From an uncultured Candidatus Berkelbacteria bacterium (GTDB lineage: Bacteria; Patescibacteriota; UBA1384; UBA12157; JAENIV01): DNA of 64,000 nucleotides. A program made the translations under genes and the position numbers. The DNA is taken from positions 734,131 through 798,130 of the forward strand of contig OY969116.1 of the NCBI GenBank assembly GCA_963698075.1, written 5' to 3'. Positions within the stretch are counted from its first letter, which is position 1. The number at the start of each line of letters is the position of its first letter. A model generated the notes under the pieces. That model made no database searches. It worked only from the letters and a program-made list of their open reading frames with translations, and was not told the DNA's origin. Below, in pieces: positions 1-20,063 of this stretch.

Positions 1-331
1 GACCCGTTTTGTCACAAGCGGTGGCGACGATAATCCCACATGGCGTGTTCGGATCAGTATTATCCGTGCAGTCCACTCCCCGCTCTACACCCTCGGGCAA
101 ATCCGAGACAGGCGCAGGAGGGAAATGAACGTCGGTGATAACACCATCGAAACGATCGCGCATCCAATATACGTATTGGCTGCCGTCGTACGATTTCGTC
201 TGTATTTTTGGCAAATGTTCCATTGCCTCATACAGATTGGTAGCCTGCAGGACTTCATGCCCTGCTGCTTCCATCACCGAAACCGCTTCGGCCATGTGCT
301 GTGGATCATCCTCGACGATGAGGATACGCAT
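1..331 (-). CDS. response regulator receiver (REC) domain protein, partial (continues past window start)
   Basis: Minus-strand ATG at 329-331 preceded by GAAAGG RBS; translation MRILIVEDDPQHMAEAVSVMEAAGHEV...FDGVITDVHFP is a CheY-like receiver; no stop before position 1; GC ~55%. Confidence 0.55.
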   Translation of the reverse strand, partial: MRILIVEDDPQHMAEAVSVMEAAGHEVLQATNLYEAMEHLPKIQTKSYDGSQYVYWMRDRFDGVITDVHFPPAPVSDLPEGVERGVDCTDNTDPNTPCGIIVATACDKTG

Positions 332-573
332 TTGGCTTTCTACCTTTCATTTCCTCAATTCTTACTGCCAGCCTTCGGGCTACTTGCTGAAAATTGATGC
401 AAAACTTGCCATCTTTTCCCAGAAGACCACCCTGACTGGTTCGCCAGAGACGTATTGGAAAGCGCCCATTTTCGCTTTCCTAATACTCCCAAGGCGATCG
501 GAATGGAAGAATTAAGATGGGCAGTACTCCGCTGCCAGGCTGTGCCATTTAACGTGCGTCAGCCACACGTGCT

Positions 574-651
574 TATGTTCAACTCTCGAACCTCGATATT
601 GCTATCGAAGCTCGAGGTTGACCCCGTTAGATGTAATGTTATCTAACGGGG
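574..651 (-). repeat. cassette-boundary element copy A: imperfect inverted repeat (GTTCAACTCTCGAAC / GCTCGAGGTTGAC) fused to hairpin CCCCGTTAGAT-N7-ATCTAACGGGG
   Basis: Read directly; same arm sequences recur at 22874-22989, 23270-23341, 25132-25205; hairpin arm CCCCGTTAGATA recurs at 24670 and 53641. Confidence 0.5.
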
Positions 652-659
652 GAAAGTCG

Positions 660-1235
660 TTACAACGGGATACTGAAAGATGCTTCCCAGTACCAGCAGT
701 CCTCCTTGGAAAGACTTGGCGCGGCGTAGAGGGAAACGTTCTTATCGCGCCAGGTGGGGCCAAGGTAGACGTCACTGTCGTAACCAGGCATCGCCAGGAC
801 CGCCGCCATCGCGCCGAGCTTGCCTCCAGGTTGATAGTCCCCGAAGACATAAACTCGACTGGTAGTGTTGTCCTTGGCGGCGAACAATGGTCGGACAACT
901 AGGGTTAGTTCGCGGGTGATTGGCTGAACGTGATTCACCCCGATCCAGAGACGGCTCAGACTGTCGTAGCGGATGGCCAGAGAAGTCAGTGATCCGATTT
1001 TGCTTACGTACAGGGTCTGACGAGAGGTGTCGTCGGAGAAGGACTCGTCGGTAAGCCTGAGGCTCACCTTGTCGTTGCCGACGCGGATGTCGGTCATTCT
1101 GAAGAAGGTCGCGCAGTCGGCCGGGTTCATCTCGGTGCCGACAGTTAGGCTCAGCGACTTCAACTCGATAGGCGCGGCCTGGGCCAGGGAAGCAACCAGT
1201 ACGAGAGCAACCAGAGAAGCCAGGACGAATTTCAT
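660..1235 (-). CDS. secreted hypothetical protein (signal peptide MKFVLASLVALVLVASLAQA)
   Basis: 191-aa ORF, N-terminal hydrophobic signal with AQA cleavage-like site; GC ~55% (foreign-like). Confidence 0.5.
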   Translation of the reverse strand: MKFVLASLVALVLVASLAQAAPIELKSLSLTVGTEMNPADCATFFRMTDIRVGNDKVSLRLTDESFSDDTSRQTLYVSKIGSLTSLAIRYDSLSRLWIGVNHVQPITRELTLVVRPLFAAKDNTTSRVYVFGDYQPGGKLGAMAAVLAMPGYDSDVYLGPTWRDKNVSLYAAPSLSKEDCWYWEASFSIPL

Positions 1236-1461
1236 TGTTTTCTCCCGCGTTTAAGGTCCGCCGACCATAGTTTTAAGGTTCAATACCCCTGAAGCCGCTT
1301 TTTGAAGGGCCTCAGGGGGTTGAACCAAGTTGTCAATGTACGTTTTAACCTGTTAGCAACCGATTTATCTGGTCGAAATCATCTCTCTCATTTTCCGAAC
1401 ATCATAGTATACCACAAAACAATACAAATGTCAAGTCTTTTTCGTCATTATTGATATAAGG

Positions 1462-1539
1462 TGTATATCTTGACATTTTAATATAAATATGGTATGATGT
1501 CAATAGTGACGACATATAATCGTCAACATCAGGAGTAGG
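1462..1539 (+). promoter_or_regulatory. sigma70-like promoter of TrmB paralog 1 (TTGACA 1470-1475, 17 bp, TATGAT 1493-1498) with palindromes TTGACAT..ATGTCAA and TGACGAcatataatCGTCA, RBS AGGAG
   Basis: Hexamers and inverted repeats read directly upstream of ATG 1540. Confidence 0.4.
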
Positions 1540-2307
1540 ATGGACATCAAATCATCATTAGAGCAAATTGGACTTCGAAAAAGACAAATTGATATTTACC
1601 TTGCTCTTTTGCAAATGGGCGAGGCAACTGTGCAAGAGATCGCTAATAAAACCAAAGTTAAACGAACTACCGTTTATAGTATTTTAGATGTTTTAATCGC
1701 CAATGGTTTAGCCACTTTTATTGAAAAAGAAGGCCACCGAACTTACTTTGCCGAGAACCCAAAAAAAGTTATTTTATATTTTAAAAACCAAGAGCAGGAA
1801 TTAAAAACCAAATTAAATAAATTTAGTGAGATAATCCCCGAACTTTCTTCGATTTATAATATTCAAGCTACCAAACCAAAAATTCGTTTTTACGAAGGCG
1901 TTGAGGGCTTAAAACAAGTTTTTGAAGAAACTTTAACGATTAAGCCACACGAAGAAATTTTGGCGATTGCCACGGCGGCTTTGATCCACGAGGTCCTTGG
2001 CGATGAATGGGTCAACAATTATTTAACCCGCCGCGTCGGCGGGAAAATCAAACAGCGGGCGATTGTTGAAGATTCGGCCTGGGGTAGAGAACATCAAAAA
2101 AATGATAAAAAAGAAAATCGGGTCACTCGCTTAGTGCCCAAAGAAAAATTTCCGTTTTCCAATGAGGTCAATATTTTTGGCAATAAAGTCATGATCGCCT
2201 CATTCAAAGATCAAATCGGAGTAATAATCGAGAGTGCCGATGTGGCCAGGACCCAAAGGGCGATATTTGAACTGGCGTGGCTGGGAGCCGATAAGTACAG
2301 TAAATAG
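1540..2307 (+). CDS. TrmB-family transcriptional regulator (wHTH N-term + TrmB C-domain), paralog 1
   Basis: N-terminal LEQIGL..IYLALLQMGEATVQEIA..TTVYSILDVLIANGL wHTH; paralogous to ORFs at 23916, 25751, 29992. Confidence 0.8.
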   Translation: MDIKSSLEQIGLRKRQIDIYLALLQMGEATVQEIANKTKVKRTTVYSILDVLIANGLATFIEKEGHRTYFAENPKKVILYFKNQEQELKTKLNKFSEIIPELSSIYNIQATKPKIRFYEGVEGLKQVFEETLTIKPHEEILAIATAALIHEVLGDEWVNNYLTRRVGGKIKQRAIVEDSAWGREHQKNDKKENRVTRLVPKEKFPFSNEVNIFGNKVMIASFKDQIGVIIESADVARTQRAIFELAWLGADKYSK

Positions 2308-2601
2308 TATTTGTATATGGTTATTAGTGATTAGTATAAGATAAAGATAAGGGAAAGGCGGCCTGATGGCCGCCTTTGAAATAGACGGTATTACAGGTTC
2401 TAGAAACGGTTCCAACTTCCAATCTTGGAGAAGGGCGCCGAGATGAAGGGCGGCAGCAAAGGGACCAATGCCCCCCAGAACGTATTCATCGTGAGTTGAT
2501 TCGCAGTGCGGCTTTATTAGCTTGAGGACTTGTTCGGCTTTGGGGATGCTAACTCCGGCTTGGGCGTAAGTCAGACCTTTCTCTGGTGGTTGCTGGCTCA
2601 T
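2200..2601 (-). pseudogene. remnant of PurM/AIR-synthase-superfamily gene (N-terminal fragment only)
   Basis: Translation GLTYAQAGVSIPKAEQVLKLIKPHCESTHDEYVLGGIGPFAAALHL matches the PurM-like N-terminal motif (LTYKDAGVDID...GGFGGLF) but diverges after ~70 aa; high-GC (2378-2610) patch; frame runs through the TrmB terminator hairpin into the TrmB gene 3' end. Confidence 0.4.
2355..2378 (+). terminator. hairpin AAAGGCGGCC-tgat-GGCCGCCTTTG downstream of TrmB paralog 1
   Basis: perfect 10-bp stem read directly; weak T-tail. Confidence 0.4.
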
Positions 2602-2707
2602 CCTCATCTCCTCGGACTTCAGCGCTATTTCATAAATATTATCTTTAGATTCAAAAGTCAAGAAAAATTTGACAAGAAGGGATATTTTTCCTCAAAATGA
2701 ACTCGAG

Positions 2708-3583
2708 ATGAACAAATTAATTCTTTGTATTGATTTGGATGAATGGTATCATGGTCGTTGGGCAACCGGATCAAAAAGGTCACACTGGCAAAACACCGAG
2801 GAGTTGTTTAAGGAATATTATCAATCCGATAGGCCTGCCGGGGAAATTATTAGACCGACCCAAGATATTCTTGAAATCTTGGGTAAAGAAAAAATTAAGG
2901 CCACTTTTTTTATTCTTGGGGAGGTTGCCCAATGGTATCCAAAACTTATCAAAGAAATTGCCAAAGAGGGTCATGAGATTGCCTGCCATGGTTTACATCA
3001 TGAGGATTTATCCTTAAAATCAAAAAGCAAGTTTATCCGGGAGCTCCGAGAAACTCGCCAAATTCTTGAGGATTTGTCAGGTCAAAAAATAATCGGTTTT
3101 AGGGCGCCAAACCTAATCGTCACCGATTGGTTGGCCCCGGTGCTTAAAGCGGAAAAATTTAGCTACGATTCCTCTGTTTGTCCGGCCAGAGCCTTTGGGG
3201 GCAAATATCAAAACCAGGCCAATATTCAACCCAATCCTTATCGGGTTGGTCAAACACTTTTAAAAAAAGGTAATTCTGGGCTTTTCGAAATCCCCATTCC
3301 CACTTTTCCGATCCTCAAACTCCCTGGCGCCGTCTCGATTGCCACGCGCATCTTTGGTTTAACTTGGACGAAAATTACTCTCAATCAAGCTTTAAAAACC
3401 GGTGCTACCTGTTATTATGTCCACCCCTATGAATTCAATCGTCCTCCGAAAGTGCCAATGACTTATCATGAGAAAATCTTTTTCAGACGCTCTGGCCCTT
3501 GGATGAGAAAGGCTTTTAGCAAAATCTTAGCCGACTACCGTTCAAGAATTACCTCGGCCAAGAACTATTTAGAAATATTTTAA
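2708..3583 (+). CDS. polysaccharide deacetylase (CE4/NodB-homology) family protein
   Basis: Motifs LILCIDLDEW (Asp-Asp motif 1) and ACHGLHHEDL (H-x-x-x-H motif 2), GFRAP; alternative TTG start at 2669. Confidence 0.75.
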   Translation: MNKLILCIDLDEWYHGRWATGSKRSHWQNTEELFKEYYQSDRPAGEIIRPTQDILEILGKEKIKATFFILGEVAQWYPKLIKEIAKEGHEIACHGLHHEDLSLKSKSKFIRELRETRQILEDLSGQKIIGFRAPNLIVTDWLAPVLKAEKFSYDSSVCPARAFGGKYQNQANIQPNPYRVGQTLLKKGNSGLFEIPIPTFPILKLPGAVSIATRIFGLTWTKITLNQALKTGATCYYVHPYEFNRPPKVPMTYHEKIFFRRSGPWMRKAFSKILADYRSRITSAKNYLEIF

Positions 3584-3588
3584 AGAAA

Positions 3589-4263
3589 ATGCCCCCAAAA
3601 ATTCCTGAATCAGAATTAGTCAAAAAATATTACAATGGCTGGGCCAGTAATTATAATTTAGCCCTGGAAGAAGAACACGAAAAAAATGTTCGGCAAAAAC
3701 TGATTAATTGGCTGTTTCAAAGAAAAAAACTTTTAGCTGAAAGGGATCAAGCGATTATTAGGGCCTGTCAAAGATTTTCTCTCAAAAACAAAAAAATTCT
3801 TGATGTTGGTTGCGGCACCGGTCAAAATAGTTTTGTCCTGGCCCGTTTGGGAGCCAAAGTCATTGGCTACGATTTTTCGGCCAAACTCGTCAAATTTTGC
3901 CGGACTAAAGCCAAAATGTTAGGTCTCGAAGATCGCGTTCACTTTGAAGTCAGAGATTTAACCAAGGATCGTCTGCCCCCAAGTGATCTGATTTTATGCT
4001 CAGCCGTGATTGAATTCTATCAAGATGTTCAGCCGATTTTTAAAAAATTTGCCCTTTCTGCCAAAGAGGCCATCATCATCGCTGACGCTCGTTTTCGTTG
4101 GCCAAGGTCGCCGCTGAGGATGATTTTGGGTCGGCTGAAAAACTTTCCGGTTTACTTCCACCAGCCGGATAAAATCAAAGCGATCGCTAAAAAATCCGGT
4201 TTTAAATGCACTTATCTTAAAATTACTCAAATCGCCCGAGTGTTTGTTTTTGAAAAAGCCTAA
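3589..4263 (+). CDS. class I SAM-dependent methyltransferase
   Basis: LDVGCGTGQNSFVLARLGAKVIGYDFS glycine-rich SAM-binding motif. Confidence 0.75.
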   Translation: MPPKIPESELVKKYYNGWASNYNLALEEEHEKNVRQKLINWLFQRKKLLAERDQAIIRACQRFSLKNKKILDVGCGTGQNSFVLARLGAKVIGYDFSAKLVKFCRTKAKMLGLEDRVHFEVRDLTKDRLPPSDLILCSAVIEFYQDVQPIFKKFALSAKEAIIIADARFRWPRSPLRMILGRLKNFPVYFHQPDKIKAIAKKSGFKCTYLKITQIARVFVFEKA

Positions 4264-4299
4264 AGATAGAAAAAATTCTTGATATGTTATACTAAAACT

Positions 4300-6528
4300 A
4301 TGGCTTTACAAACTCGAAAAAGTCACCTTTGGCTCTATTTATTTTTTGCTGCTTGGATAATTTTAATGTTTTTGCTAGGGTTTTATCTTTCACCGGTGAG
4401 CATTTTCATTATTTTTTTGGGTTTGATCTTTATTCCTGGCTTTGCTTTATCGAGGATTTTTAAAATCCAATACCAAAATGATCGTTTCGGTCAGTTGATT
4501 TTAACTTTAGTTTTAGGATTGGAATTTAATTTTACTCTTATCTTGGCGGCGATTTTATTAGGTTTGACGATCGCCGTTTTATTGAAAATATATCTTATTT
4601 TCTTTGGCCTAATTTTTATTTTAGCCTTGATTTTAGACATCTTAAAACCGCCGGAGACTAAACCTCTTTCATGGCGAGTAAAAGATTTGTTTAAAGCTGA
4701 ATATCTTGTCTATGTCCTTTTGGCCATTCTCATTCTTGCCGTTTTAATCACCGTTGATTATCTGGGGGCGAATTTTGTCGCTGATCCATTTTATAATTTG
4801 GCGATTATTCGCAAAGCCTTTGAAGGTCAACCACTGTTGATGCAAAACTTAAGCTATAATAAATATTCCCTTCATCCGGCTTTTGCTCTGCCAATTTGGC
4901 ATGTTTTTTTGGCCTTATTTACCAAAATTTTGGGGACGAATATTTTTGTTGTTTACCGAGAAATTCCGACCAGCTTAAGTCTTTTGGCTTTTCTTGTTTG
5001 GTATTGGTTATTCTTAAAAATCTTACCCAATCGTCGAGTCGCAGTGCTGGGTACGTTGTTGGTAATAATCTATTATCTGACCACCAGCGCTTATCTTTAC
5101 ACTCGGCTGCCAGTCCCGGATACCCTCAATGAATTATTTCTCATGCCTTTGGCATTTGCCGTGACTTTAAAATATATCTTTGCCCACTCCTCTAACTTTA
5201 AACATCTCATTGTTTTGATACTTTTCACCCTTTTCATGGGCATTATCCACTGGAATCATTACTTCCAATTTTTGTTTACCATGGCGCTTTTTACGATTAT
5301 CTATGCCATTTTGCAGTGGCGCTCAGGTGATTTTAAAAAAGTTTTTAAGAAAATTTTTATCGCTTCTTTTGGAAGCGTCATTTTGGCTGGCTTGGTTTTT
5401 CTACTTTTTGAGTCAAAGGGAGGGACGATCTCAGAGCATTTACAAATTTTTCCCAATTTGAAAATGCAATACCGTTATATTCGATTTGTCCAATTCGATC
5501 AATTCTTAAAATATGCCTATATATTCTTGCCTTTTCTGGTTTTGGGCATCCGTAAATACCGCCAATTGATATTTACTTTAGCTTTATTTTTGATCGGCCC
5601 GATTATTTTTAATTTTCCGGGCGTCAAGGATTTTTTAATCAATCATTTAAGCAGCGTTTTTGTTAAGCGTTTTTATGCCAATAACGGCTGGCCATTTGTC
5701 GTCTGGGCGATTGTTATTGGTTTTATTTTTGTTTTATTTGATCGCCTAATCTCAAAGATAACCCAAAAATTGATTTTTTGGCGCTATTTAATTGATGGCA
5801 TCTTGATTGCTCTGGTAATTATCGCCTTCTATACTCAGCTTAAGTTCGCCACCGCAAGTCAAATTTATCAGAGAATATTTTCACCCGGAGCTGACCAGTG
5901 GTTAAACCATTATTATCAATGGTTAATACCTATCGTTCTTATCATGGTTTTAATAATTTATTTCTTAGCCAGATATAATGCCAAAATTAATGATTTTTTT
6001 GTTTTTTCTCATTATCAAGATGAGGTTTTTATTTTTGGCCTAATCGCCCTTTTAACTATTTTACTGGCCAGTCCAGCGATCAGTCTTTTTCAAACCAACG
6101 TCAAGAAAGACCTGAGCCAGAAACATTTTATTAGAAGCCAAGAAGATCCAACTTTCTCGATCGTCGATACCAATGATTTTGGGGGAATGGCAACCATTGA
6201 TTTTATTCGCCAAAATATTCCGGCCAAGGCAGATTTTGATAGCAATTCGGCAAATTATGTTTTACCCTTGATGGTCGATGTTTTTACCATCTATACTTTT
6301 GACCCTGATCCAATCAAGAAATATAAGGATCTTTACGAAAATATTCCCATCCAAAAGAAGTTGGCCATTCTCAAAGAGGGCAAGATCGACTATATTCTCT
6401 ATGTTTTCCCCGATCCAAGTGGGAGTTCGCCCTTTGATTCTTTTGGTCAATATTTTATGAAAATCTACGATAATGGCCAGGCAGCGATTTTTAAGATAAA
6501 CAAAACAACGGTCAACGCCGCCAGCTAA
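4300..6528 (+). CDS. large polytopic membrane protein, GT-C-like (paralog 1 of 3); candidate lipid-linked glycosyl/oligosaccharyl transferase
   Basis: ~15 predicted TM helices plus soluble C-terminal domain; first-loop motif DPFYNLAIIRKA and PIWHVFLALF conserved in paralogs at 7362 and 9547; ATG 4300 (tool ORF starts at TTG 4279); extended -10 TGTTATACT just upstream. Confidence 0.6.
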   Translation: MALQTRKSHLWLYLFFAAWIILMFLLGFYLSPVSIFIIFLGLIFIPGFALSRIFKIQYQNDRFGQLILTLVLGLEFNFTLILAAILLGLTIAVLLKIYLIFFGLIFILALILDILKPPETKPLSWRVKDLFKAEYLVYVLLAILILAVLITVDYLGANFVADPFYNLAIIRKAFEGQPLLMQNLSYNKYSLHPAFALPIWHVFLALFTKILGTNIFVVYREIPTSLSLLAFLVWYWLFLKILPNRRVAVLGTLLVIIYYLTTSAYLYTRLPVPDTLNELFLMPLAFAVTLKYIFAHSSNFKHLIVLILFTLFMGIIHWNHYFQFLFTMALFTIIYAILQWRSGDFKKVFKKIFIASFGSVILAGLVFLLFESKGGTISEHLQIFPNLKMQYRYIRFVQFDQFLKYAYIFLPFLVLGIRKYRQLIFTLALFLIGPIIFNFPGVKDFLINHLSSVFVKRFYANNGWPFVVWAIVIGFIFVLFDRLISKITQKLIFWRYLIDGILIALVIIAFYTQLKFATASQIYQRIFSPGADQWLNHYYQWLIPIVLIMVLIIYFLARYNAKINDFFVFSHYQDEVFIFGLIALLTILLASPAISLFQTNVKKDLSQKHFIRSQEDPTFSIVDTNDFGGMATIDFIRQNIPAKADFDSNSANYVLPLMVDVFTIYTFDPDPIKKYKDLYENIPIQKKLAILKEGKIDYILYVFPDPSGSSPFDSFGQYFMKIYDNGQAAIFKINKTTVNAAS

Positions 6529-6540
6529 ATTTCCAGTTCT

Positions 6541-7287
6541 CTAATATTGATAATCAGCCAAGTTGATATAATTATATTTATCTATTTTGGCGGTATATCC
6601 CTGTCCCAATTTGAGCATAAAATCTTTGACATTAATGACCCGAACAACATCTTCTTGAGCTTTTTCATTTAATTGGTCACCTGCTTTTAGGAAAAATTTC
6701 TTTGTCTCACGTGGCTGACCGGCCATTAATTCCTCCGCACTTTTATTTATCCAAACATTAATCGTCGGATCAAGAATTTGCCAATGACCGTCAAATTTGA
6801 TCTCGACAAACCCGTGGGACCCATTATTGGTCGAGATAGTTCTAAATTCATAGCCGCCAGCTCTGTCTAAAAGCATGGCCAAAAAAAGAGTATTCGTTCC
6901 GCAATGAAAGTACTCACTGCCCCAGAGCACTTCTTTGAACGTATTTTCTTTGAGTTCTCTTTTGCCGTAAAACCCGAACATATGAACAAAATTCATCATA
7001 AAGAGGGCTCGTAGTTTATATTCATCAGAGGTGCCTGCCATTTTGACAAAAGTGGAGTGATATTTCGCTAAACGCTTATCTAATTTTTGGACAACGACGG
7101 CGGCTGAATCTTCGTTGCCAGCAAGAATCTCATTTTTGTCAAAGATTTTGTAATAAGTTTCTGATGATTTGGGGTTTAAGTGGGTTGAATTATATTTGAA
7201 CCAAGCAACTCCACCGACCGCCAAGATTAAAAATATAATTATTCCCCAAATTAAATTCCTGTGTAAAAATCCCTTAGAGCGTCTCAT
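6541..7287 (-). CDS. transglutaminase-like (Cys-His-Asp) superfamily protein, membrane anchored
   Basis: CGTNTLFLAMLLDRAGG...HGFVEIKFDGHWQILDP catalytic triad arrangement; N-terminal TM; probable leaderless start MRRSKG (promoter TTGAGA-18-TATATT), longer ORF to 7323 possible. Confidence 0.6.
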   Translation of the reverse strand: MRRSKGFLHRNLIWGIIIFLILAVGGVAWFKYNSTHLNPKSSETYYKIFDKNEILAGNEDSAAVVVQKLDKRLAKYHSTFVKMAGTSDEYKLRALFMMNFVHMFGFYGKRELKENTFKEVLWGSEYFHCGTNTLFLAMLLDRAGGYEFRTISTNNGSHGFVEIKFDGHWQILDPTINVWINKSAEELMAGQPRETKKFFLKAGDQLNEKAQEDVVRVINVKDFMLKLGQGYTAKIDKYNYINLADYQY

Positions 7288-7361
7288 GATTTGAATATAC
7301 CACATTTCTCTCAATTTTCTCAAACTTCTGCTCGGGCAATATATGTTATACTAAAAATAGA

Positions 7362-9550
7362 ATGCGAAACATTAGTTTAGAAAACTTCCGACGAGGTTTC
7401 ATTTTAGAATATATTCTTTGGATTTTATTTGGCTTATTATTTTTGATCTTAGCAAAGACTGCACCCCAGATTTTTGCCAATCCTTGGTTTTTCTCCATGG
7501 CTTTTTTATATTTATTGCTTTTGCCGGGCTGGTTGCTTTTTGGAATTTTGAAAATTAAAATCGAAGATTTTGCCGGTCTTTTCCTTTGCTACTTGACCTT
7601 GGGTTTAATTTTTTATCTTATCCTGGCTTTGTTGGCAGTTCTAGCTGCTTTGAGCCTGGCTGCTTTAATTAAAATTTCCTTTGGACTGCTGATTCTTTTA
7701 TTTGTTTTAGGCTTCCTCTTAGCCCTTTTTAGACCCGCCAAAACACCAACTCTCCCCAAAAAAATTACCGAGGCTGATCTCTTCTTGTTATTGCCAATTA
7801 TTTTTGGGGCATTCATACTCTATGTCGTTTATCTGAAGGGACCCGGTTTAGATGGTGATCCCTATTTACACCTTTCAATTATTCGTAAAGCTTTTTTGGG
7901 AGATTCATTGTCGCCTCGGGCGCTGGCTTTCGCCAAAACTGGGCTCATCATGCCAGCTTATAATTATCCGATTTGGCATGTTTTCTTAGCTTTTTTAAGC
8001 AAAATCTTATCCTTGGACCCACTCATTGTCTGGTCCAATGTTTTATTTGCTTTGACAGCGATCATGCTCTTTATCTGGTACTGGTTTTTTAAGAAAATTT
8101 TTGTCCAAAAGGGCTGGTCGATTTTGGCTCTTTTAATTTTTTTGGCAGTGACCTTTTATGTCGGCACTGGTTATTTATTCACTCGCTTAGCGGTTCCGGA
8201 TACGCTTGCTCAATTCATTCTTTTGCCTCTTTTAATTGCCTTAAGCCTGGACTATATTTTCGCCCAAAACCAAAATCGAAGCCTGCTAGTTATTATTAGC
8301 TTGTTGGCCATTATTTCCCTTATCATTCATGGCCCTCATTATTTTTACTTCTTATTTATCTTTCTAATTTTCGGCCTCCTTTACACCATCGTTGGTCTCA
8401 AAGATAATGCCTACAAAATCATTTTAAAAAAGATCGGTGAAGTCATTTTCATCTCTTTAATTCCCCTTGTACTTTTTGGGATTATAGTTGAAGCCCTAAG
8501 TGGCTCTTTGTCTATGATTCTAGCTGAATTTTCTAAAGCTTCCCCCCCAGAACTGAGGACGCAATTTTCAAGTTTTGGCTTGCTGACGAGATATGGATAT
8601 TTTCTTATTCCCTTCACCATTCTTTTTGTCCGACAAAAAAGAATTCTTTTTGTCATCAGCTCAATGGCCTTAGTGCCGTTAATCTATTGGACACCACTGG
8701 GAAATTTTTTGGGAAAAATTTTAAGTTTTGTTTTTGTCGAAAGATTGCGCGATAACACCGCCTTTTATTTCCTAGTTATCACCTTGATTTTGGGCCTTTT
8801 TGTTTTGGCCATCGACCGTCTCGCTAGTCTTTACTCGCGTTATCGCCATCTCTTGGAAATAATTTTAGTTGCCTTATTTTTCTTTCTTGTCGGATTGGAA
8901 GTTCGATCCCACAAAATTACCTCCTTTTCTTATAAGATTTTTTATGATAAATCAACCGCGGCCTATCTTGATAATCATTTAATTTGGCTTGTTTTTATCA
9001 GCTTTTTTTGGCTTTATTGGCTTGCCTGGTTCGGAAATTTTTGATTAAAAAAGAGATCATCATTAGTCAACAAATCTTTCAAAATCAATTAATCTGTTTT
9101 TTGGTAATCGTAATAATTGCTTTTTTCTTTTTTGCGCCATCATTGGAATATCTCCCGGTCGACTTACATCAACCAATGAAAGAAACTGCCCAGGATTATT
9201 TCCTAAGAAGGCTTAGTGGTGACCCGGGGGCTTTGTCTTTTGTCCAAAAAAACCTACCAGCAAAGTCGGTTATTTTAGCTGACGAAAATGCGACTAAAGT
9301 GCTCTCGGTGATGACCGGTAATTATATGGCTTACAACGTTGGTTCTGCTTATGAAGAGAGATTTAATTGGGTTTTTGACCCAACCACTCCAGATTCCGAG
9401 AAGGTAAATATCGTCACCTCTCCCGAATGGGCGATTGACTATATTTATTTGGCCGATCCGACCGCTGAGGGCCAGCATTTTCGCCTCCATCCAGAAATTT
9501 ATCAGAAAATATATGATGGACAGACAATAATTTATCAAGTGACTAAATGA
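7362..9550 (+). pseudogene. GT-C-like membrane protein paralog 2, interrupted by -1 frameshift at T7 homopolymer (9004-9010); possible phase-variable gene
   Basis: ORF 7362-9044 (560 aa) and ORF 8984-9550 (188 aa) overlap in different frames; together colinear with paralogs 1 and 3; T8 would give an in-frame fusion (...SFFLALLACLVRKFLIKKE...). Confidence 0.55.
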
Positions 9551-11763
9551 AAATTAAAGCTTACTATCTTTATTTATTGTCACTTATTTGGTTAGGTGTT
9601 TTGGCCGCCTTGCTTAGGTTTACTCATCTTAATGTCACTGGTCTTGGAATGACGTTGACGGTTTTGACCTTAATCTTTTTACCAGGGATTTTTCTCTGGC
9701 GGTTAATTAGGTTTGAAAACGTTAATTTATCGATTAAATTACTCTATATTATTGGCTTAGGTTTTGTTTTTTATTTTTTTCTCAATTTCTTGGCCCTCAT
9801 ATTTAAAATGACGCTCGGGCAACTTTCTTTTGCCATTGGGTTTTTTAGCCTGGTCTTATTTTGCTTAAGTTTTTGGGAAGACCGTCAAAATCTTTTCGAG
9901 ATAGATTTTATTTGGATTAAGAAACAAACAATTGGCGATTGGCTTTTGATTGCCCTCCTCCTTGTCGGTGTTATCGCCGCTTTTTTGGGAGTTGATGCCC
10001 AATCGAATAAGGTTATCGGTGATAGTAGTTTCCATTTGGCCATCCTCAAAAAAGTCCTCACAGCCGAAAACCTCTCTCCCCATAATCTCTGGGTTACCAA
10101 GACGACCAGCCTTAATCTTGTCTACTCTTTTCCTGTTTGGCATATCTTCCTCGGTTTTTTGAGTAAAATTCTTAATTTAAATACAATTACTACCTATACG
10201 GAAGTCCTTTTGCCTCTAGTCGTTTTAGCGATCATGGTCGTTTTGGGATTCATTAAGGCGGTTTTTCAAAATAAATATCTTGTCATCGTCAGTTTTTTGA
10301 CTTTTCTGGCTCTTTCTTTTAGCGCCGGAATTTTTTACAACCTGGTGCCGCTTCGGTCACCAGATTCCTTGGTCAGATTGTTACTTTTCCCTTTAGTTTT
10401 AGGATTAACAATTAATTATTTAATCGATACCAAACCCGTCAAGTCAAAAATTTTTGCCAATGTCTTTTTCATTTCTTTTTTGGCGATTTCGATGGGATTA
10501 GTTCACTTTCCTCAACTGATCGAATATTTTTTAATTTTAGGCCTCTTCTTAATTTTTTGGCTCATTTTTAACCGAGGAAAAGAAGCTTTGAAAAAACTCG
10601 CCTGGTTATTCTTGACTCTAGCTGTCTTAATCTTGCCGTATCTTTTAATTTTCCAATTGATGAACTTACGCCATTTTTTTCAAAGCAATTTAGCCAATTT
10701 TACCGATGATCATTTTCGTAATAAGTCTTACATCGTTTCATCAAATATCTATCTTTATACTGTCTTTGCTTTGCCGCTGATGGCCTTATTTTTCAAAAAG
10801 GAACGTCGGCTGATTTTTGTGGTCGCGATTGCCCTCGGTCTCTTGATGATTAGTTGGCAAGTGTTCCAATTACGCCTATTTTTTCTGAAATATTTCGGAG
10901 AAGTTTTTACGATTAGAGCCATCACTGACATTCCCAGTTTCCTTTATGTGGGTTTTATTATCTTTTTATTAATTCTTTTGCTAAATCTTTGTTTCCGAAA
11001 AAAAATCTTTGCCTACTTATCTTCTAGCGTTTTGATCGGCGGCTTTTTATTGATTCTTGCTTTCCGAGCTGCTCCAGTGAAAAATTTTATTGACACCGTG
11101 ATCATTTCTGCCAAGAATCCATTTTTTTATGACTATTTTGTGCCTATTTTAATCGTTCTGGTAGCGGTATCGATAGTAATCTTCGTTTACCAAAATTTTA
11201 TCCGGAAGAAAGATTTAACTATTCAAGATCCTCCCAATAAAATTAATTTCGTCGTGATAACTTTCATTTTATTGGCAATTTTATCCATGCCTTATCTGAG
11301 TGATTTTAGATATGTCTTAGCTCATAATCCCAATGGCTCGCTCATAAATAACCGAGAAATTCAAGCTGTCGGTGATATTCAAAGGGTCGGCGGCAAAGAA
11401 ACGATTGATTTTTTACAAACCCTGCCACCCAGGGCAGTCCTGATTACCTCGAGCATTACCGTGGCTCAGATACTTTTGCCCAATATCAGTCAGTATTTGG
11501 CAGAATATCCCTACGGCATCAACGAATTTAGCTATAGTCAAAAGCTTTATGACCCCAATCTTTCGCCCGAGGGTCGCCAAGAAATTTTGGACAAACACCC
11601 AGTTGATTATGTTATTTGCCTTAGATCTTGGGAGACTGTTCTTTTCGAAGGCCAAACGGGATTTGAAAAAATTTATCAAAAAAAATATTCTTATACTGTC
11701 CAAAGTGGTCAAATTTCTTATCAAAAAGAAGCCGAGTTCACCATTTTTAGCTATCTTCATTAA
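9547..11763 (+). CDS. large polytopic membrane protein, GT-C-like (paralog 3 of 3)
   Basis: 738 aa, motifs DSSFHLAILKKV, FPVWHIFLGFLSKIL, C-terminal soluble domain similar to paralogs; start overlaps upstream stop (ATGA). Confidence 0.6.
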   Translation: MKIKAYYLYLLSLIWLGVLAALLRFTHLNVTGLGMTLTVLTLIFLPGIFLWRLIRFENVNLSIKLLYIIGLGFVFYFFLNFLALIFKMTLGQLSFAIGFFSLVLFCLSFWEDRQNLFEIDFIWIKKQTIGDWLLIALLLVGVIAAFLGVDAQSNKVIGDSSFHLAILKKVLTAENLSPHNLWVTKTTSLNLVYSFPVWHIFLGFLSKILNLNTITTYTEVLLPLVVLAIMVVLGFIKAVFQNKYLVIVSFLTFLALSFSAGIFYNLVPLRSPDSLVRLLLFPLVLGLTINYLIDTKPVKSKIFANVFFISFLAISMGLVHFPQLIEYFLILGLFLIFWLIFNRGKEALKKLAWLFLTLAVLILPYLLIFQLMNLRHFFQSNLANFTDDHFRNKSYIVSSNIYLYTVFALPLMALFFKKERRLIFVVAIALGLLMISWQVFQLRLFFLKYFGEVFTIRAITDIPSFLYVGFIIFLLILLLNLCFRKKIFAYLSSSVLIGGFLLILAFRAAPVKNFIDTVIISAKNPFFYDYFVPILIVLVAVSIVIFVYQNFIRKKDLTIQDPPNKINFVVITFILLAILSMPYLSDFRYVLAHNPNGSLINNREIQAVGDIQRVGGKETIDFLQTLPPRAVLITSSITVAQILLPNISQYLAEYPYGINEFSYSQKLYDPNLSPEGRQEILDKHPVDYVICLRSWETVLFEGQTGFEKIYQKKYSYTVQSGQISYQKEAEFTIFSYLH

Positions 11764-11776
11764 GAATTGAGGTCAA

Positions 11777-12706
11777 TTGCCCAAATTGTTAAAAAAAGTA
11801 ATTCTAATAGTCCTGGTTTTAAGTTTAGTCTTTGTGATCGGGTTAAATTTTCTTACCCCTAAGAAAAATTCCCAATTTCGGGTCAGCTCTTTTAAAATTA
11901 ACCAACTCGACCAAGATGAAATGCCGTTTACCTTCGACAAGATTGCCCCTCTTGAAAATGATTTTCCCACCGATCAAGATGGCATCATTCTATATAATAA
12001 TCAATATTATCACCCCGGTCAGATTGCCGATGAGGGCTTATTTTTGGTTGATACTTATCGTCAAATCAACAACCAGGAATTCTTGCTTCGAGCGGAAAAA
12101 TACGCCCATAAACTTTTAGAGTTGTCGCTTAAATCAAATGGGGCGCTTTATTTTCCTTACCCCTTTGATTTCCCTTTACATGGCTTAAAAGATGACGTCA
12201 TGAGAGCTCCCTGGTATTCAGGAATGACTCAGGGCGAGGCCCTTTCCCTTTTTAGCCGACTTTACGGGATAACTCACAAAAAAGAATATTTGATGGCCGC
12301 CGATCAGACATTTCAAAGTTTCGTAAATTTTAATCACAATCCCTGGATAGTCAATGTCGACGACAACAATTATTATTGGATTGATGAATACCCAGAAGAA
12401 AACCCCGACCAAACTCTTAACGGTTTTATTTTTGGGACTTTCGGTTTGTATGATTATTATCTTTTAAAAAAAGATTCCTCATCAAGAAAAATGCTCATGG
12501 CAGCTTTTACCACCATCAAGCACTATTTACCAGCATTCAGGAATCCAGGGAAAATAAGTTTCTATTGTCTTAAACATAAAGTCCAGAATGCACCTTATCA
12601 TAAAATTCACATCAGGCAGCTGAATCAGCTTTATAAAATAACCGGGGATTCATTCTTCAAAACAATGGCCGATAATTTTTATCAAGATTATCATGAATCA
12701 ACTTAA
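11777..12706 (+). CDS. D-glucuronyl C5-epimerase C-terminal domain-like protein, membrane anchored
   Basis: RAPWYSGMTQGEALSLFSRLYGIT resembles the WYSAMAQGQAIS motif of Glce-type C5-epimerases; N-terminal TM helix. Confidence 0.55.
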   Translation: MPKLLKKVILIVLVLSLVFVIGLNFLTPKKNSQFRVSSFKINQLDQDEMPFTFDKIAPLENDFPTDQDGIILYNNQYYHPGQIADEGLFLVDTYRQINNQEFLLRAEKYAHKLLELSLKSNGALYFPYPFDFPLHGLKDDVMRAPWYSGMTQGEALSLFSRLYGITHKKEYLMAADQTFQSFVNFNHNPWIVNVDDNNYYWIDEYPEENPDQTLNGFIFGTFGLYDYYLLKKDSSSRKMLMAAFTTIKHYLPAFRNPGKISFYCLKHKVQNAPYHKIHIRQLNQLYKITGDSFFKTMADNFYQDYHEST

Positions 12707-12711
12707 AAAAG

Positions 12712-13917
12712 TTATCTTACGAAAAGAGATTGCTCCAAAACTCGATAAAAATTTTCATCAGAGAATTTTTCGATGGCCAATCTACGGGCATTTTTTGAAT
12801 ATTGGCTGACGATTTGAGGGTTATTATAAAGCTTTAAAATAACTTGTGAAAGTTCTCTGGAAGCTCCAGGTCGTACGACTAAACCAACATTATTTGATTC
12901 AATTAGTTCTTTTAAGTTTTTGCCAGCACAAGCCACAATCGGCTTACCACACCCGAGATATTCGCTAGTTTTTGTCGGTAAGGCATTATCAGAAAAAAAT
13001 TTGTTTGGGGAAAGAGAGATTAAACCAAGATCTGAAGCATTAATCAGCTCGATAATTTTTTCCGTTGGTTGGCCATCAATGAAAATAATATTTTTTAATT
13101 TAAAATCTTTGGCTTGATGAATGAGGTTTTCTTTGTCTTCACCTTCTCCAACAAGGAAAAATATAATTTTAGGATATTTTTTAAGTAATTGGGCGGTTTC
13201 AATGACAGTTTTTAGATTTTGAACTTGGGTTAATGAGCCAACATAAATAACGACAAAATCATCTGGGGAGAGTTTGAATTTTGGTCGCGAGACTTCTGCG
13301 GGTTTAAAAAGATTAATGTCAACGGTATTAACTAAAGTAATTACCTTTTCTTTAGGGATTCCCATTTTAATAATAGTTTTTCTGATTTCCCCCGTCGCCG
13401 AGAAAATTTTTTGCGATCGGCGATAGTAAAGTCTCTCGAGGCCCTTCAATGTTTTTTTAATCATCTTGTTTGGTTTATAACCTAATTCGAAAGCAGAATC
13501 TGGCCAGAGATCACGAACATCGAAGATAAAATTACCCCTGCCCATCCAGATGGCAAAAAGACCGGCTAGCCCTGAAAAAAAGTTTGGTGAGGAAACAATT
13601 ACTAAATCGAAAGGTTCCATAAAAAAGATCGTCAAACAAGCCGCCAAAACGAAAACAAGATGGTTGATCGTTCTTCTAATAAAGCCCTTATTAGGAGTTG
13701 GCAAGTCCCAAACCCTAATGATATTTATTCGTCCGTCACGTTCTTTAGTCCAAAGTTTGCCACGATATTCCGGTGGTAGAATACCGGTTGGGTAGGAGGG
13801 CAGACTGGTGAGTACTGTTGTTTCATATCTTGAGGCCAAAAATTCAGCAATCCGGGACATCCTTTTGACTGGCGACTTCACTGGTTTGTACCAATGACTA
13901 ATAAGTAGCGCGCGCAT
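12712..13917 (-). CDS. glycosyltransferase family 4 (WcaI-like)
   Basis: GT-B fold length (401 aa), C-terminal LVGEGEDKENL...EYLGCGKPIVA nucleotide-sugar binding region. Confidence 0.7.
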   Translation of the reverse strand: MRALLISHWYKPVKSPVKRMSRIAEFLASRYETTVLTSLPSYPTGILPPEYRGKLWTKERDGRINIIRVWDLPTPNKGFIRRTINHLVFVLAACLTIFFMEPFDLVIVSSPNFFSGLAGLFAIWMGRGNFIFDVRDLWPDSAFELGYKPNKMIKKTLKGLERLYYRRSQKIFSATGEIRKTIIKMGIPKEKVITLVNTVDINLFKPAEVSRPKFKLSPDDFVVIYVGSLTQVQNLKTVIETAQLLKKYPKIIFFLVGEGEDKENLIHQAKDFKLKNIIFIDGQPTEKIIELINASDLGLISLSPNKFFSDNALPTKTSEYLGCGKPIVACAGKNLKELIESNNVGLVVRPGASRELSQVILKLYNNPQIVSQYSKNARRLAIEKFSDENFYRVLEQSLFVR

Positions 13918-14281
13918 GGCCTCTCTTTCTGACTGCCGCTCCTTTTTTGATATTTTTTAAGGCCAAGGCTCTGACTAATCGAGTGATTTCTTTTTCTTGC
14001 TCATTGGATTTGACATAGAGTCGATAAGTGGCATAAAAAAGCGCCACGATTCCTAAAAAGAACATGGCATCATTGCCGCGTTCCATCCCTAGGATTTTGG
14101 CTAAAAAATTGGTTTTGCCGGGAATAAAAACTAAAATAATCATTGCCAACCAAAGAAATGACCAAAAAATTAGTTCTTTTAAGTTTAAATCTTTAGAATA
14201 AAAACGAATCACCGCTCTCGACCAGGCAAAGACAGCGAAAAGGGTAAAAAGAATTTTGATTAAGGCAAGAGAAAGATGCAT
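13898..14281 (-). CDS. DUF2304-like small membrane protein (GT2-associated)
   Basis: 127 aa, three TM segments, basic C-tail; typical partner immediately downstream of Dpm1-like GT2. Confidence 0.5.
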   Translation of the reverse strand: MHLSLALIKILFTLFAVFAWSRAVIRFYSKDLNLKELIFWSFLWLAMIILVFIPGKTNFLAKILGMERGNDAMFFLGIVALFYATYRLYVKSNEQEKEITRLVRALALKNIKKGAAVRKRGHARATY

Positions 14282-14302
14282 TGTTTTGACCTCGTCAACT
14301 AG

Positions 14303-15013
14303 CTATTTAGTAAAAAATCTCCTGTAAATTAACTTGGAAATGATGCGCAAGGCATTGATATTTTTTTGTCCTTTTCCTAATGAGTAATCAGTATAAACAC
14401 TTTTAACCGGGACTTCAATTAATTTTAATTCGTGGCGGCCTATCTCGTAAAAAAATTCGCTCGAAACCTCCATTTTATTTGACTGAATATCAATTTTTGA
14501 TAGAGACTTTTTGGAAAAAGCCCGTAGTCCTGATTGCGAATCCGTTGACCAGACCCAGAAAAAGAGAACTGTAATTAAATTAAGTCCCCAAATACCAATC
14601 ATTCGATACCATGGCATTCCTTGGGGATTTTTAAGCCGTGAACCGATAACAACGTCAGATTGGCCATAGACAATTGGTCTTAACACCGGCCAAATATCAT
14701 CACTTTGATGTTGGCCGTCGGCATCAAAAGTTAAGACCACGTCAAACTGGTTTTCGCGGGCATATTCAAAACCGGTTCCCAAGGCACCACCCAAACCTCG
14801 GTTTAAATTATGTTCGATTAAAGTGATCCCGGCTTGTAAGTGACTTTGAACAATTTCGGCGGTTTTATCAGTTGAGCCATCGCTGATAACAACAATTTCT
14901 GTTTCACGGATTCCCGGGTAACGGCGGGGGATCGATTCTAAAACCGCCTTAATGGTTTTTTCCTCGTTGTAGGCTGGGATAATGATGGCTAACTTTATCT
15001 GTTTTTTTAACAT
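14303..15013 (-). CDS. GT2 polyprenol-phosphate glycosyltransferase (Dpm1/GtrB-like)
   Basis: LAIIIPAYNEE...VISDGSTDKT...DADGQH motifs (DxD, GT-A fold). Confidence 0.8.
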   Translation of the reverse strand: MLKKQIKLAIIIPAYNEEKTIKAVLESIPRRYPGIRETEIVVISDGSTDKTAEIVQSHLQAGITLIEHNLNRGLGGALGTGFEYARENQFDVVLTFDADGQHQSDDIWPVLRPIVYGQSDVVIGSRLKNPQGMPWYRMIGIWGLNLITVLFFWVWSTDSQSGLRAFSKKSLSKIDIQSNKMEVSSEFFYEIGRHELKLIEVPVKSVYTDYSLGKGQKNINALRIISKLIYRRFFTK

Positions 15014-15132: not shown

Positions 15133-15219
15133 GGAGAGATGGCAGAGTGGCCGATTGCGCCGCACTTGAAATGCGGTATCCTCGCAAGGGGATCGGGGGT
15201 TCGAATCCCTCTCTCTCCG
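15133..15219 (+). tRNA. tRNA-Ser (anticodon TGA), long variable arm
   Basis: Cloverleaf folded by hand: acceptor GGAGAGA/TCTCTCC, anticodon stem CCGCA/TGCGG, loop CTTGAAA, variable arm, T-loop GGTTCGAATCC; CCA not encoded. Confidence 0.85.
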
Positions 15220-15247: not shown

Positions 15248-15339
15248 GGAGAGGTCGCATAGTTTGGCCTAGTGCGGCACGGTGCTAACGTGCTGAGTCC
15301 GCAAGGGCTCCGTGGGTTCGAATCCCACCCTCTCCGCCA
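15248..15339 (+). tRNA. tRNA-Ser (anticodon GCT), long variable arm, CCA encoded
   Basis: acceptor GGAGAGG/CCTCTCC, anticodon loop GTGCTAA, T-loop GGTTCGAATCC, 3' CCA present. Confidence 0.85.
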
Positions 15340-17483: not shown

Positions 17484-17493
17484 CTATTTTATT

Positions 17494-20027: not shown

Positions 20028-20063
20028 TACGTATATACGTGTAACTTTTAACTTTTAACACTT

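What the first reader, a model, noticed from the sequence alone, without database searches (positions are those of the whole stretch)
8984..9044. Homopolymeric T7 tract frameshift splits one of three paralogous surface glycosyltransferase-like genes: candidate phase-variation switch
The middle paralog (7362-9550) is broken into overlapping ORFs exactly at a run of seven T at 9004-9010. Inserting one T (T8) reads ...SFFLALLACLVRKFLIKKE..., and gives a full-length protein colinear with its neighbours. Slipped-strand mispairing at homopolymer tracts inside surface glycosyltransferase genes is a classic ON/OFF mechanism in other bacteria. Here it would toggle one of three envelope-modifying enzymes.
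Basis: partly seen in the sequence, partly recalled or inferred. Interest (0 to 1): 0.7.

Follow-up and report, generated by a model that had tools for sequence, protein, structure and literature searches.

The report
Frameshifted glycosyltransferase gene, two null alleles
One of three conserved membrane glycosyltransferase genes in a tiny uncultured (Patescibacteria) bacterium is broken by a one-base change in a run of T, and a second public assembly of the same organism has that run repaired but is broken at a run of C instead. The gene may therefore flip on and off by replication slippage, but sequencing error at these runs cannot yet be excluded.

Summary
A T7 run sits at 9003-9009, one base left of the reported position. 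It splits a 729-codon gene into ORFs 7362-9044 and 8984-9550, and one extra T restores a protein colinear with its two flanking paralogs.

New evidence: Logan contigs of run ERR10755944 match 39,873 nt of the window with no simple base substitutions. They carry T8 at this run, giving exactly the predicted reading ...SFFLALLACLVRKFLIKKE.... They also carry C6 instead of C7 at 8542-8548, so that copy is broken 460 nt upstream. These are the only 2 discordant runs among 47 compared. The intact C7/T8 allele was not found anywhere.

Orthologs in more than 15 other Patescibacteria loci are intact. The repaired protein keeps 126 of 137 highly conserved residues, so this is not an old pseudogene.

A confident predicted structure shows a GT-C fold with an oligosaccharyltransferase-like C-terminal domain. 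The gene sits in a conserved cassette with a PpgS-like GT2 and a DUF2304 protein.

Against an evolved switch: the runs are short, no more frequent than elsewhere in the window, and not conserved in orthologs.

Best reading (about 0.5): real slippage-generated null alleles, meaning phase-variation-like ON/OFF or recurrent loss. Main rival (about 0.35): homopolymer miscalls in one or both assemblies.

The parts
7362..9550 (+). GTC2: the middle GT-C-fold glycosyltransferase paralog. It would be 729 codons if read as C7/T8 and is frameshifted in the window.
   Evidence: colinear with paralogs and orthologs. (GT-C fold). (126 of 137 highly conserved positions kept).
9003..9009 (+). T7 run in codons 548-550 (F-F-L in the T8 form), inside the penultimate transmembrane helix. 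It is T8 in the Logan assembly of ERR10755944.
8542..8548 (+). C7 run (TCC CCC CCA, S394-P395-P396), the only C run of 7 or more in the window. It is C6 in the Logan assembly, where the ORF stops two codons later.
7362..9044 (+). N-terminal ORF of the T7 allele: 560 aa, whose last 11 residues WLYWLAWFGNF are out of frame. Identical to P0037 from the 929,420-nt source contig.
8984..9550 (+). C-terminal ORF of the T7 allele. The source record calls it from TTG 9041 (169 aa, P0039). That TTG overlaps the TGA stop at 9042-9044. The product would be the last transmembrane helix plus the globular domain.
4279..6528 (+). GTC1, the upstream paralog (intact).
9547..11763 (+). GTC3, the downstream paralog (intact). 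Its ATG overlaps the GTC2 stop by 4 nt.
6541..7323 (-). Conserved 260-aa ORF with no family match. It lies upstream of GTC1 in four relatives (54-66% identity), whereas in the window it lies between GTC1 and GTC2.
11777..12706 (+). Glucuronyl C5-epimerase-like gene.
   Evidence: (PF06662, 1.3e-38).
12712..13917 (-). GT4 (WcaI-like) glycosyltransferase.
13898..14281 (-). DUF2304 small membrane protein.
   Evidence: (4.5e-23).
14303..15013 (-). GT2 most similar to the polyprenyl-phospho-GalNAc synthase PpgS. It is the likely maker of the lipid-linked sugar donor for the GT-C enzymes.
   Evidence: (NF058614, 2.6e-41, 141.5 bits, below the 370-bit cutoff).

Best explanation
GTC2 is the middle of three conserved GT-C-fold membrane glycosyltransferases. 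These probably use a polyprenyl-phosphate sugar, made by the neighbouring PpgS-like GT2, to decorate an envelope polymer or protein outside the membrane.

In this organism the gene exists as at least two different null alleles, each made by loss of one base in a short homopolymer:
- T8 to T7 at 9003-9009 (this window). This cuts off the last transmembrane helix and the extracytoplasmic C-terminal domain.
- C7 to C6 at 8542-8548 (Logan assembly). This stops the protein at residue 397.

The most likely cause is replication slippage at these runs in a near-clonal population in which loss of this enzyme is tolerated or favoured. That amounts to stochastic and in principle reversible ON/OFF variation of one surface-glycan step. 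It is phase-variation-like in the broad sense used for the 7-nt run of M. tuberculosis glpK. It is not a dedicated long-tract contingency locus.

Shown: the frameshift, the two alleles, the fold, the conserved cassette, and that orthologs are intact.
Inferred: that the alleles are biological, that the ancestor was C7/T8, that switching is reversible, and the donor and target of the enzyme.
For: - Five Logan contigs of ERR10755944 cover 39,873 nt of the window with no simple base substitutions. Of 47 compared homopolymers (A/T of 7 or more, C/G of 6 or more, including six of 8 or more), only two differ, and both lie in GTC2.
- Given the T run was the ascertained one, the chance that the only other discordant run falls among the 4 other runs of the same gene is about 4/46 = 0.09.
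- Each assembly is intact at the other's lesion. The simplest history is two independent one-base losses from an intact C7/T8 gene.
- The gene is not decayed: 126 of 137 highly conserved positions are kept, within the range of intact orthologs, both before and after the shifts.
- GTC2 orthologs are intact single frames in every other locus examined, and GTC2 sits with GTC3 and, in most loci, GTC1 in a conserved cassette.
- No other mid-gene homopolymer frameshift candidate exists in the 64 kb, so the assembly is not riddled with indel errors.
- Precedent for a 7-nt run acting as a reversible switch: glpK, PMC10334774.
Against: - The intact C7/T8 allele, and any other tract-length variant, is absent from a 15-billion-protein collection. 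Reversibility and an ON state are therefore unobserved.
- All three differences between the assemblies are indel-type changes in low-complexity contexts: C7/C6, T7/T8, and GAGAAA/GGAGAA at 3049-3051. There is no ordinary SNP. That pattern is typical of base-calling or polishing artefacts.
- Both GTC2 lesions are one-base deletions relative to the intact form, which is the usual direction of long-read homopolymer error.
- The source is a single 929,420-nt contig, which suggests a long-read assembly.
- The platform of ERR10755944 and its relation to the source reads are unknown.
- The runs are short, at ordinary density, explained by codon usage (TTT is 76% of Phe codons, CCC 25% of Pro), and not conserved in orthologs.
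Confidence: 0.5

Rival explanations
1. Sequencing or assembly artefact. The true gene is intact (C7/T8). The window's consensus under-called the T run, and the k-mer assembly of ERR10755944 under-called the C run.
For: - The source is one 929-kb contig, suggesting long reads.
- Both lesions are one-base deletions in homopolymers.
- The third difference between the assemblies is also an indel-type shuffle in a purine run, and there are no SNPs.
- Each assembly repairs the other.
- All orthologs are intact and the protein is fully conserved.
- Logan contigs are short (2.8-17.9 kb) and end in unique sequence, suggesting low coverage.
Against: - It needs two independent errors in the same 2.2-kb gene, while 45 other runs, including six of 8 or more, agree over 39.9 kb. 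The chance is about 0.06-0.09.
- There is no other mid-gene frameshift candidate in 64 kb.
- If ERR10755944 is short-read data, its C6 call is unlikely to be an error.
Confidence: 0.35
2. Fixed, decaying pseudogene. The enzyme has been lost for good in this lineage and the tract differences are neutral drift in dead DNA.
For: Both available assemblies are out of frame, and no intact allele is on record.
Against: - There are no further stops, shifts or substitutions.
- 92% of highly conserved positions are kept in all three segments.
- The two assemblies carry alternative lesions, not cumulative ones, so neither lesion is ancestral to both.
- GTC2 is present and intact in every other locus examined, and the full trio in seven of them.
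Confidence: 0.05
3. The T7 allele is still expressed. This could happen by recoding (-1 ribosomal frameshift or transcriptional slippage on the U run). Alternatively it could be a split enzyme, with the 560-aa membrane core plus a 169-aa piece re-initiated at TTG 9041, which overlaps the TGA stop.
For: - TTG 9041 overlaps TGA 9042-9044, and GGA lies 6 nt upstream.
- The out-of-frame tail WLYWLAWFGNF is hydrophobic and could complete the cut helix.
- The source annotation calls both pieces.
- Runs of 7 or more U/A are known slippage sites (general knowledge).
Against: - The T run is not in the X XXY YYZ register: the zero-frame codons are TTT TTT TGG.
- There is no stable downstream structure (z = 0.35).
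- T7 is short for efficient transcriptional slippage.
- No ortholog is split or carries the run.
- The C6 allele cannot be rescued this way, because about 40 residues would be lost.
Confidence: 0.07

Closest known systems
Homopolymer-tract phase variation of surface glycosyltransferase genes (Campylobacter jejuni LOS/CPS genes, Neisseria lgt genes, Helicobacter fucosyltransferases, Pasteurella multocida; e.g. PMC8355987, PMC9176279)
   Same: A +/-1 change in a mononucleotide run inside a glycosyltransferase ORF truncates the enzyme. Near-identical genomes differ only in tract length. The expected result is an altered surface glycan.
   Different: The runs here are 7-8 nt (T) and 6-7 nt (C), against typically 8-17 G/C. 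They are not over-represented and not conserved in orthologs. Two separate runs in one gene are involved. The enzyme is GT-C (lipid-linked donor), not a Leloir GT-A/GT-B. The ON state and read-level heterogeneity have not been shown. The organism is an uncultured Patescibacterium, and no paper in the library treated phase variation in this group as a subject.
Short-tract reversible frameshifts in Mycobacterium tuberculosis (7-nt run in glpK; PMC10334774)
   Same: A 7-nt C/G run in an ordinary, conserved gene acts as a low-rate reversible frameshift site. Variants are seen as recurrent independent indels in otherwise near-identical genomes.
   Different: In M. tuberculosis this rests on thousands of isolates plus a measured rate of 3.14e-8 per generation. 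Here there are two assemblies and no measured rate or phenotype.
GT-C fold glycosyltransferases, especially oligosaccharyltransferases AglB/STT3/PglB, and AftA, ArnT, DPY19
   Different: Sequence identity is only 8-14%. There is no WWDYG motif, no PDB sequence hit, and no Pfam or NCBIfam hit for the window proteins. About four extra N-terminal helices precede the core. The family is small: 339 representatives among 1.84 billion proteins.
Mycobacterial PpgS (Rv3631) / Rv3632 / Rv3779 module (PMC3485146)
   Same: The layout is a GT2 that makes a polyprenyl-phosphate sugar, a small integral membrane protein next to it, and a GT-C enzyme that uses the lipid-linked sugar outside the membrane. The window's GT2 best matches the PpgS model over its full length, and a DUF2304 membrane protein lies beside it.
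   Different: The PpgS score (141 bits) is far below the 370-bit equivalog cutoff. There are three GT-C paralogs instead of one. The sugar and acceptor are unknown. That Rv3632 belongs to DUF2304 is from memory and was not tested here.
Homopolymer indel errors in long-read (meta)genome assemblies
   Same: A single-base deletion in a run of 7 or more bases splits a conserved gene whose orthologs are all intact. A second assembly disagrees at exactly that run.
   Different: Such errors are normally scattered. Here 45 of 47 runs agree, and both disagreements lie in one gene.

Membership tests
Simple-sequence-repeat contingency locus (phase variation) | A mononucleotide or short repeat inside the ORF or promoter whose +/-1 unit change switches expression | tested here: met
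   T7/T8 at 9003-9009 and C7/C6 at 8542-8548 each change the frame.
Simple-sequence-repeat contingency locus (phase variation) | Tract length differs among cells or isolates of one strain | tested here: inconclusive
   Two assemblies with no simple base substitutions over 39.9 kb differ at both runs. No reads were available and the platform is unknown, so error is not excluded.
Simple-sequence-repeat contingency locus (phase variation) | Both ON and OFF states occur (reversibility) | tested here: not met
   Only two OFF alleles were found. An exact look-up of the intact 729-aa product and five other tract variants found nothing.
Simple-sequence-repeat contingency locus (phase variation) | The tract is longer or more frequent than composition predicts, or is conserved in related strains | tested here: not met
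   There are 68 A/T runs of 7 or more in 64 kb. Codon usage explains both runs. No ortholog has a run at either site.
Simple-sequence-repeat contingency locus (phase variation) | High switching rate (well above the base-substitution rate) | not testable with these tools
   This needs read-level or culture data.
GT-C fold glycosyltransferase superfamily | Multi-spanning membrane core with the GT-C architecture | tested here: met
GT-C fold glycosyltransferase superfamily | A conserved acidic residue in the first long extracytoplasmic loop | tested here: inconclusive
   Invariant D166 in G-D-P-Y lies in the 160-219 loop, which has two short helices. Its equivalence to the catalytic Asp was not checked by superposition.
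GT-C fold glycosyltransferase superfamily | Uses a polyprenyl-phosphate-linked sugar donor | not testable with these tools
   The only support is indirect: a conserved neighbouring PpgS/AglJ-like GT2 and a DUF2304 protein.
Pfam DUF6541 (PF20176) | Match to the family model | tested here: not met
   The window protein matches no Pfam family even at E of 1 or less. Seven of 16 orthologs do match DUF6541, best 5.6e-16.
Oligosaccharyltransferase (STT3/AglB/PglB) | WWDYG motif in the C-terminal domain | tested here: not met
   No WWD[YWF]G occurs in any of 16 orthologs or the paralogs. Only a conserved W-A-I-D-Y / [IV]-D-Y-[IV] near the C terminus is present.
Programmed -1 ribosomal frameshift site | Slippery heptamer X XXY YYZ in the zero frame plus a downstream stimulatory structure | tested here: not met
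   The zero-frame codons are AGC TTT TTT TGG. The downstream 91 nt fold no better than shuffles, z = 0.35.

The most novel reading that the evidence does not exclude
A Patescibacteria (CPR) cell toggles one of three conserved GT-C surface glycosyltransferases by slippage at two separate short homopolymers in the same gene. A near-clonal population would then carry a mix of glycan types. This would be the first contingency-type locus described in this episymbiotic radiation, and it could plausibly be tied to host attachment or phage escape.
Probability: 0.2. Interest if true: 0.65.

Novelty: new member of a known kind. Interest (0 to 1): 0.4.

Why it matters
If the two alleles are biological, this is direct genomic evidence that ultra-small, uncultured Patescibacteria vary their surface glycans by slippage. 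Their cell surface mediates attachment to host cells and phage adsorption. The locus would be testable at once with public reads.

Independently of that question, the locus defines a small, uncharacterised GT-C family. It is a conserved trio with an oligosaccharyltransferase-like C-terminal domain, linked to a PpgS-like lipid-sugar synthase, and is a candidate envelope or protein glycosylation system of this radiation.

If the alleles are artefacts, the case is a useful warning. One gene annotated as two fragments in a public genome would then be an error, and agreement between two assemblies cannot be assumed at homopolymers.

Tried and rejected
- **Wider search for the locus.** I scanned GTDB representative genomes and JGI metagenome contigs with a pattern spanning both runs (C5-9, T6-10). 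There were 0 matches, and the pattern does work on the window. No further alleles came from those collections.
- **Exact protein look-ups.** I looked up the intact C7/T8 product and the T6, T9, C5, C8 and C6/T7 variants. None is on record.
- **Source and platform.** The window's own 560-aa ORF was not retrievable as a contig. The source is known only as a 929,420-nt NCBI/ENA contig. Literature searches for ERR10755944 and ERR10755* found nothing, so the platform is undetermined.
- **Family assignment by sequence.** Pfam, NCBIfam and PDB sequence searches of the paralogs gave nothing usable. The afdb50 fold library was unavailable.
- **Recoding.** Programmed frameshifting was rejected on register and on lack of structure.
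- **Conserved switch.** Rejected, because no ortholog has a run at either site.
- **Old pseudogene.** Rejected on conservation.
- **Other fusion candidates.** Those from the +/-1 scan (13943, 13953, 18942, 33569) are ordinary gene junctions, not broken genes.
- **The 3049-3051 difference.** One homolog has Q there, so it could not be assigned to either assembly as an error.
- **Failed look-ups.** Four more window proteins had no exact record, probably because the called start codons differ.

Full report
**1. The observation**

The run of seven T is at 9003-9009, one base left of the reported 9004-9010. ORF 7362-9044 (560 aa) and ORF 8984-9550 (188 aa from the first TTG) overlap over exactly the reported interval.

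Inserting one T gives a 729-aa product reading ...ISFFLALLACLVRKFLIKKE.... This product is colinear with the flanking genes 4279-6528 (749 aa, 30% identity) and 9547-11763 (738 aa, 24%). It aligns with no gap at the junction to 15 intact orthologs of 717-744 aa.

A T7 run is not special in itself. The window has 68 A/T runs of 7 or more, and each paralog has 3-5. TTT makes up 76% of Phe codons. However, this is the only mid-gene homopolymer in the 64 kb at which a +/-1 change fuses two long ORFs. The four other hits of that scan are ordinary gene junctions.

**2. A second assembly of the same organism**

Exact-protein look-ups of neighbouring genes recovered five contigs from the Logan assembly of run ERR10755944. 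Together they cover window 1-13963, 19762-31209, 34785-39732, 42500-45269 and 53989-60732, a total of 39,873 nt. There are no simple base substitutions.

The only differences are:
- T8 instead of T7 at 9003-9009.
- C6 instead of C7 at 8542-8548.
- GGAGAA instead of GAGAAA at 3049-3051, an in-frame E to R change in the polysaccharide deacetylase gene.

The Logan protein P0038 reads ...WLVFISFFLALLACLVRKFLIKKE.... That copy is not intact either. The C6 allele stops at residue 397 (P0036 ends ...EFSKASPQN), and the next ORF starts about 40 residues later.

The window's own ORFs, P0037 (560 aa) and P0039 (169 aa), come from a single 929,420-nt contig held by NCBI and ENA.

Of 47 compared homopolymers (A/T of 7 or more, C/G of 6 or more, six of them 8 or more), only these two differ. 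Both lie in this one gene. The C7 run is the only C run of 7 or more in the window.

The intact C7/T8 product is not in a 15-billion-protein collection, and neither are the T6, T9, C5, C8 or C6/T7 variants. The locus is also absent from GTDB representative genomes and JGI metagenomes (pattern validated).

**3. What the gene is**

No Pfam, NCBIfam or PDB sequence hit exists for the window's three paralogs. Seven of 16 orthologs match DUF6541.

An AlphaFold2 model built on 16 sequences is confident, with pLDDT 83.3 and pTM 0.87. Its best structural matches are all GT-C glycosyltransferases:
- ALG12, STT3B, AftA, ArnT, ALG9, DPY19, PglB, PMT.

There is no WWDYG motif, so I do not file it as an oligosaccharyltransferase. 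An invariant G-D-P-Y (D166) lies in a long loop with two short helices. It is a candidate for the GT-C catalytic loop, but I did not check this by superposition.

The family is small. It has 339 representatives at E of 1e-3 or less among 1.84 billion proteins. The named hits come from Berkelbacteria and other Patescibacteria.

The order GTC1-GTC2-GTC3-(C5-epimerase)-GT4(-)-DUF2304(-)-GT2(-) recurs, in full or in part, in about nine distinct Patescibacteria loci. The 260-aa ORF lies upstream of GTC1 in four of them; in the window it lies between GTC1 and GTC2. The GT2 best matches the polyprenyl-phospho-GalNAc synthase PpgS (2.6e-41, full length, below the equivalog cutoff) and AglJ.

A lipid-sugar synthase, a small membrane protein and a GT-C enzyme together form the layout of the mycobacterial Rv3631/Rv3632/Rv3779 module (PMC3485146). 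From this I infer that the trio transfers lipid-linked sugars to an envelope polymer or protein outside the membrane. This step is inference, not shown.

The T run lies in the penultimate transmembrane helix (model helix 540-562). The T7 allele therefore separates the membrane core from the last helix and the external domain.

**4. Is the gene decaying?**

No. At positions where at least 14 of 15 orthologs agree, the repaired protein matches at 126 of 137 (92%). Intact orthologs score 81-98% in the same leave-one-out test. The segments before, between and after the two runs are equally conserved.

GTC2 orthologs in all other loci are single open frames. The two assemblies carry alternative lesions, not cumulative ones. 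The simplest history is two independent one-base losses from an intact C7/T8 gene.

**5. Is it an evolved switch?**

The evidence is against a dedicated contingency tract.
- The runs are short (7-8 T, 6-7 C).
- Their density is ordinary for a T-rich membrane-protein gene.
- Codon usage explains them.
- Orthologs carry 3-6 runs of 7 or more at other, non-homologous positions, including T8 and A8 runs in intact genes.

Short runs can still act as low-rate reversible frameshift sites. The 7-nt run of M. tuberculosis glpK is the accepted example, with a measured rate of 3.14e-8 per generation (PMC10334774). No paper in the library treats phase variation in Patescibacteria as a subject.

**6. Real or artefact?**

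For real variation:
- Both discordant runs lie in one 2.2-kb gene, while 45 other runs agree. Given that the T run was the ascertained one, the chance that the other falls in the same gene is about 0.06-0.09.
- The window shows no other frameshifted gene.

For artefact:
- A 929-kb single contig suggests a long-read assembly.
- Both lesions are one-base deletions relative to the intact form.
- The third difference is also an indel-type shuffle in a purine run, and there is no ordinary SNP.
- Logan contigs are short and end in unique sequence, suggesting low coverage.
- The platform of ERR10755944 and its relation to the source reads could not be established.

Weighing a prior that favours error for long-read genomes against the roughly 3-4-fold likelihood advantage of a locus-specific process, I give these probabilities:

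| Explanation | Probability |
|---|---|
| Real slippage-generated null alleles | about 0.5 |
| Miscalls | about 0.35 |
| Old pseudogene | about 0.05 |
| Recoding or a functional split gene | about 0.07 |

On the last row, the T run is not in X XXY YYZ register and the downstream RNA has no structure (z = 0.35). TTG 9041 does overlap the TGA stop, so re-initiation of a 169-aa C-terminal piece is conceivable.

**7. Verdict**

The gene is a GT-C-type glycosyltransferase, and T7/T8 length difference exists between two public assemblies. A second variable run was also found in the same gene. However, the ON allele is unobserved, the runs are ordinary, and sequencing error remains a strong rival.

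If real, this is a new member of a known kind: short-homopolymer ON/OFF variation of a surface glycosyltransferase, in a lineage where it has not been described. The decisive test is a read pile-up at 8542-8548 and 9003-9009 against control runs, using the public run named above.

Noticed in passing
window 39707-39768 (inside ORF 39562-40692) and 34771-34822: AT-rich 7-nt repeats (TCAAAAA / AATGCAA, about 3-7 copies). The first lies inside the N-terminal coding part of a 376-aa ORF that I did not scan against any family; its protein there reads ...[21 protein letters not shown].... A copy-number change would shift the frame. Both repeat regions coincide with ends of Logan contigs (34785/34795 and 39732), which could reflect copy-number heterogeneity or low coverage.
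   Followed up: partly
window 3049-3051 (polysaccharide deacetylase gene 2669-3583): The only non-homopolymer difference between the two assemblies is GAGAAA (window, R-E) versus GGAGAA (Logan, R-R). It is a paired one-base loss and gain 2 nt apart. It looks more like a base-calling or polishing artefact than a natural mutation. One homolog has Q at this position, so neither version could be called wrong.
   Followed up: partly
window 12712-15013 (- strand) with 4279-11763: The conserved cassette GT2 (PpgS/AglJ-like), DUF2304 and GT4 next to the GT-C genes recurs with GTC2 in seven distinct Patescibacteria loci, and with a single more distant (29-31% identical) GT-C gene in two more. It is a candidate lipid-linked extracytoplasmic glycosylation system of unknown product.
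   Followed up: partly
window 6541-7323 (- strand): A 260-aa ORF with no Pfam or NCBIfam match is conserved at 54-66% identity upstream of GTC1 in four relatives (in the window it lies between GTC1 and GTC2), and is duplicated in L022. Its function is unknown.
   Followed up: no
window 1540-2307, 23916-24662, 25751-26509, 29992-30756: At least four paralogous TrmB-type helix-turn-helix regulators of about 250 aa are scattered among glycan genes in the 64 kb. This is an unusually high density for a roughly 0.93-Mb genome.
   Followed up: no
window 32068-32111: A perfect 14-nt tandem repeat, TTATACTGGCCGCA x3.1, lies about 40 nt upstream of the ORF starting at 32151.
   Followed up: no
window 34949-39565: A second GT-C module: a PMT_2-family GT-C (34949-36544), a GT2 (37653-38375) and a GtrA-like flippase-type protein (39158-39565). 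The genome therefore invests in at least four GT-C enzymes within 35 kb.
   Followed up: no
proteins P0018 (477 aa), P0105 (436 aa), P0098/P0128: Some family members from other metagenomes look truncated or frameshifted. P0018 follows the family consensus to ...PLIYWTPLQSIFNK and then diverges for 27 residues before a stop. P0098 and P0128 are overlapping pieces of one gene. The DNA was not examined because the look-ups were exhausted, so real frameshift, error and contig end cannot be told apart.
   Followed up: no
window 17411-17483 versus ORF 17461-18954: The mechanical ORF for the Wzx-like flippase (GTG at 17461) overlaps the 3' end of a tRNA gene, so the true start must lie further downstream. 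Two more tRNAs lie at 15133-15219 and 15248-15336.
   Followed up: no
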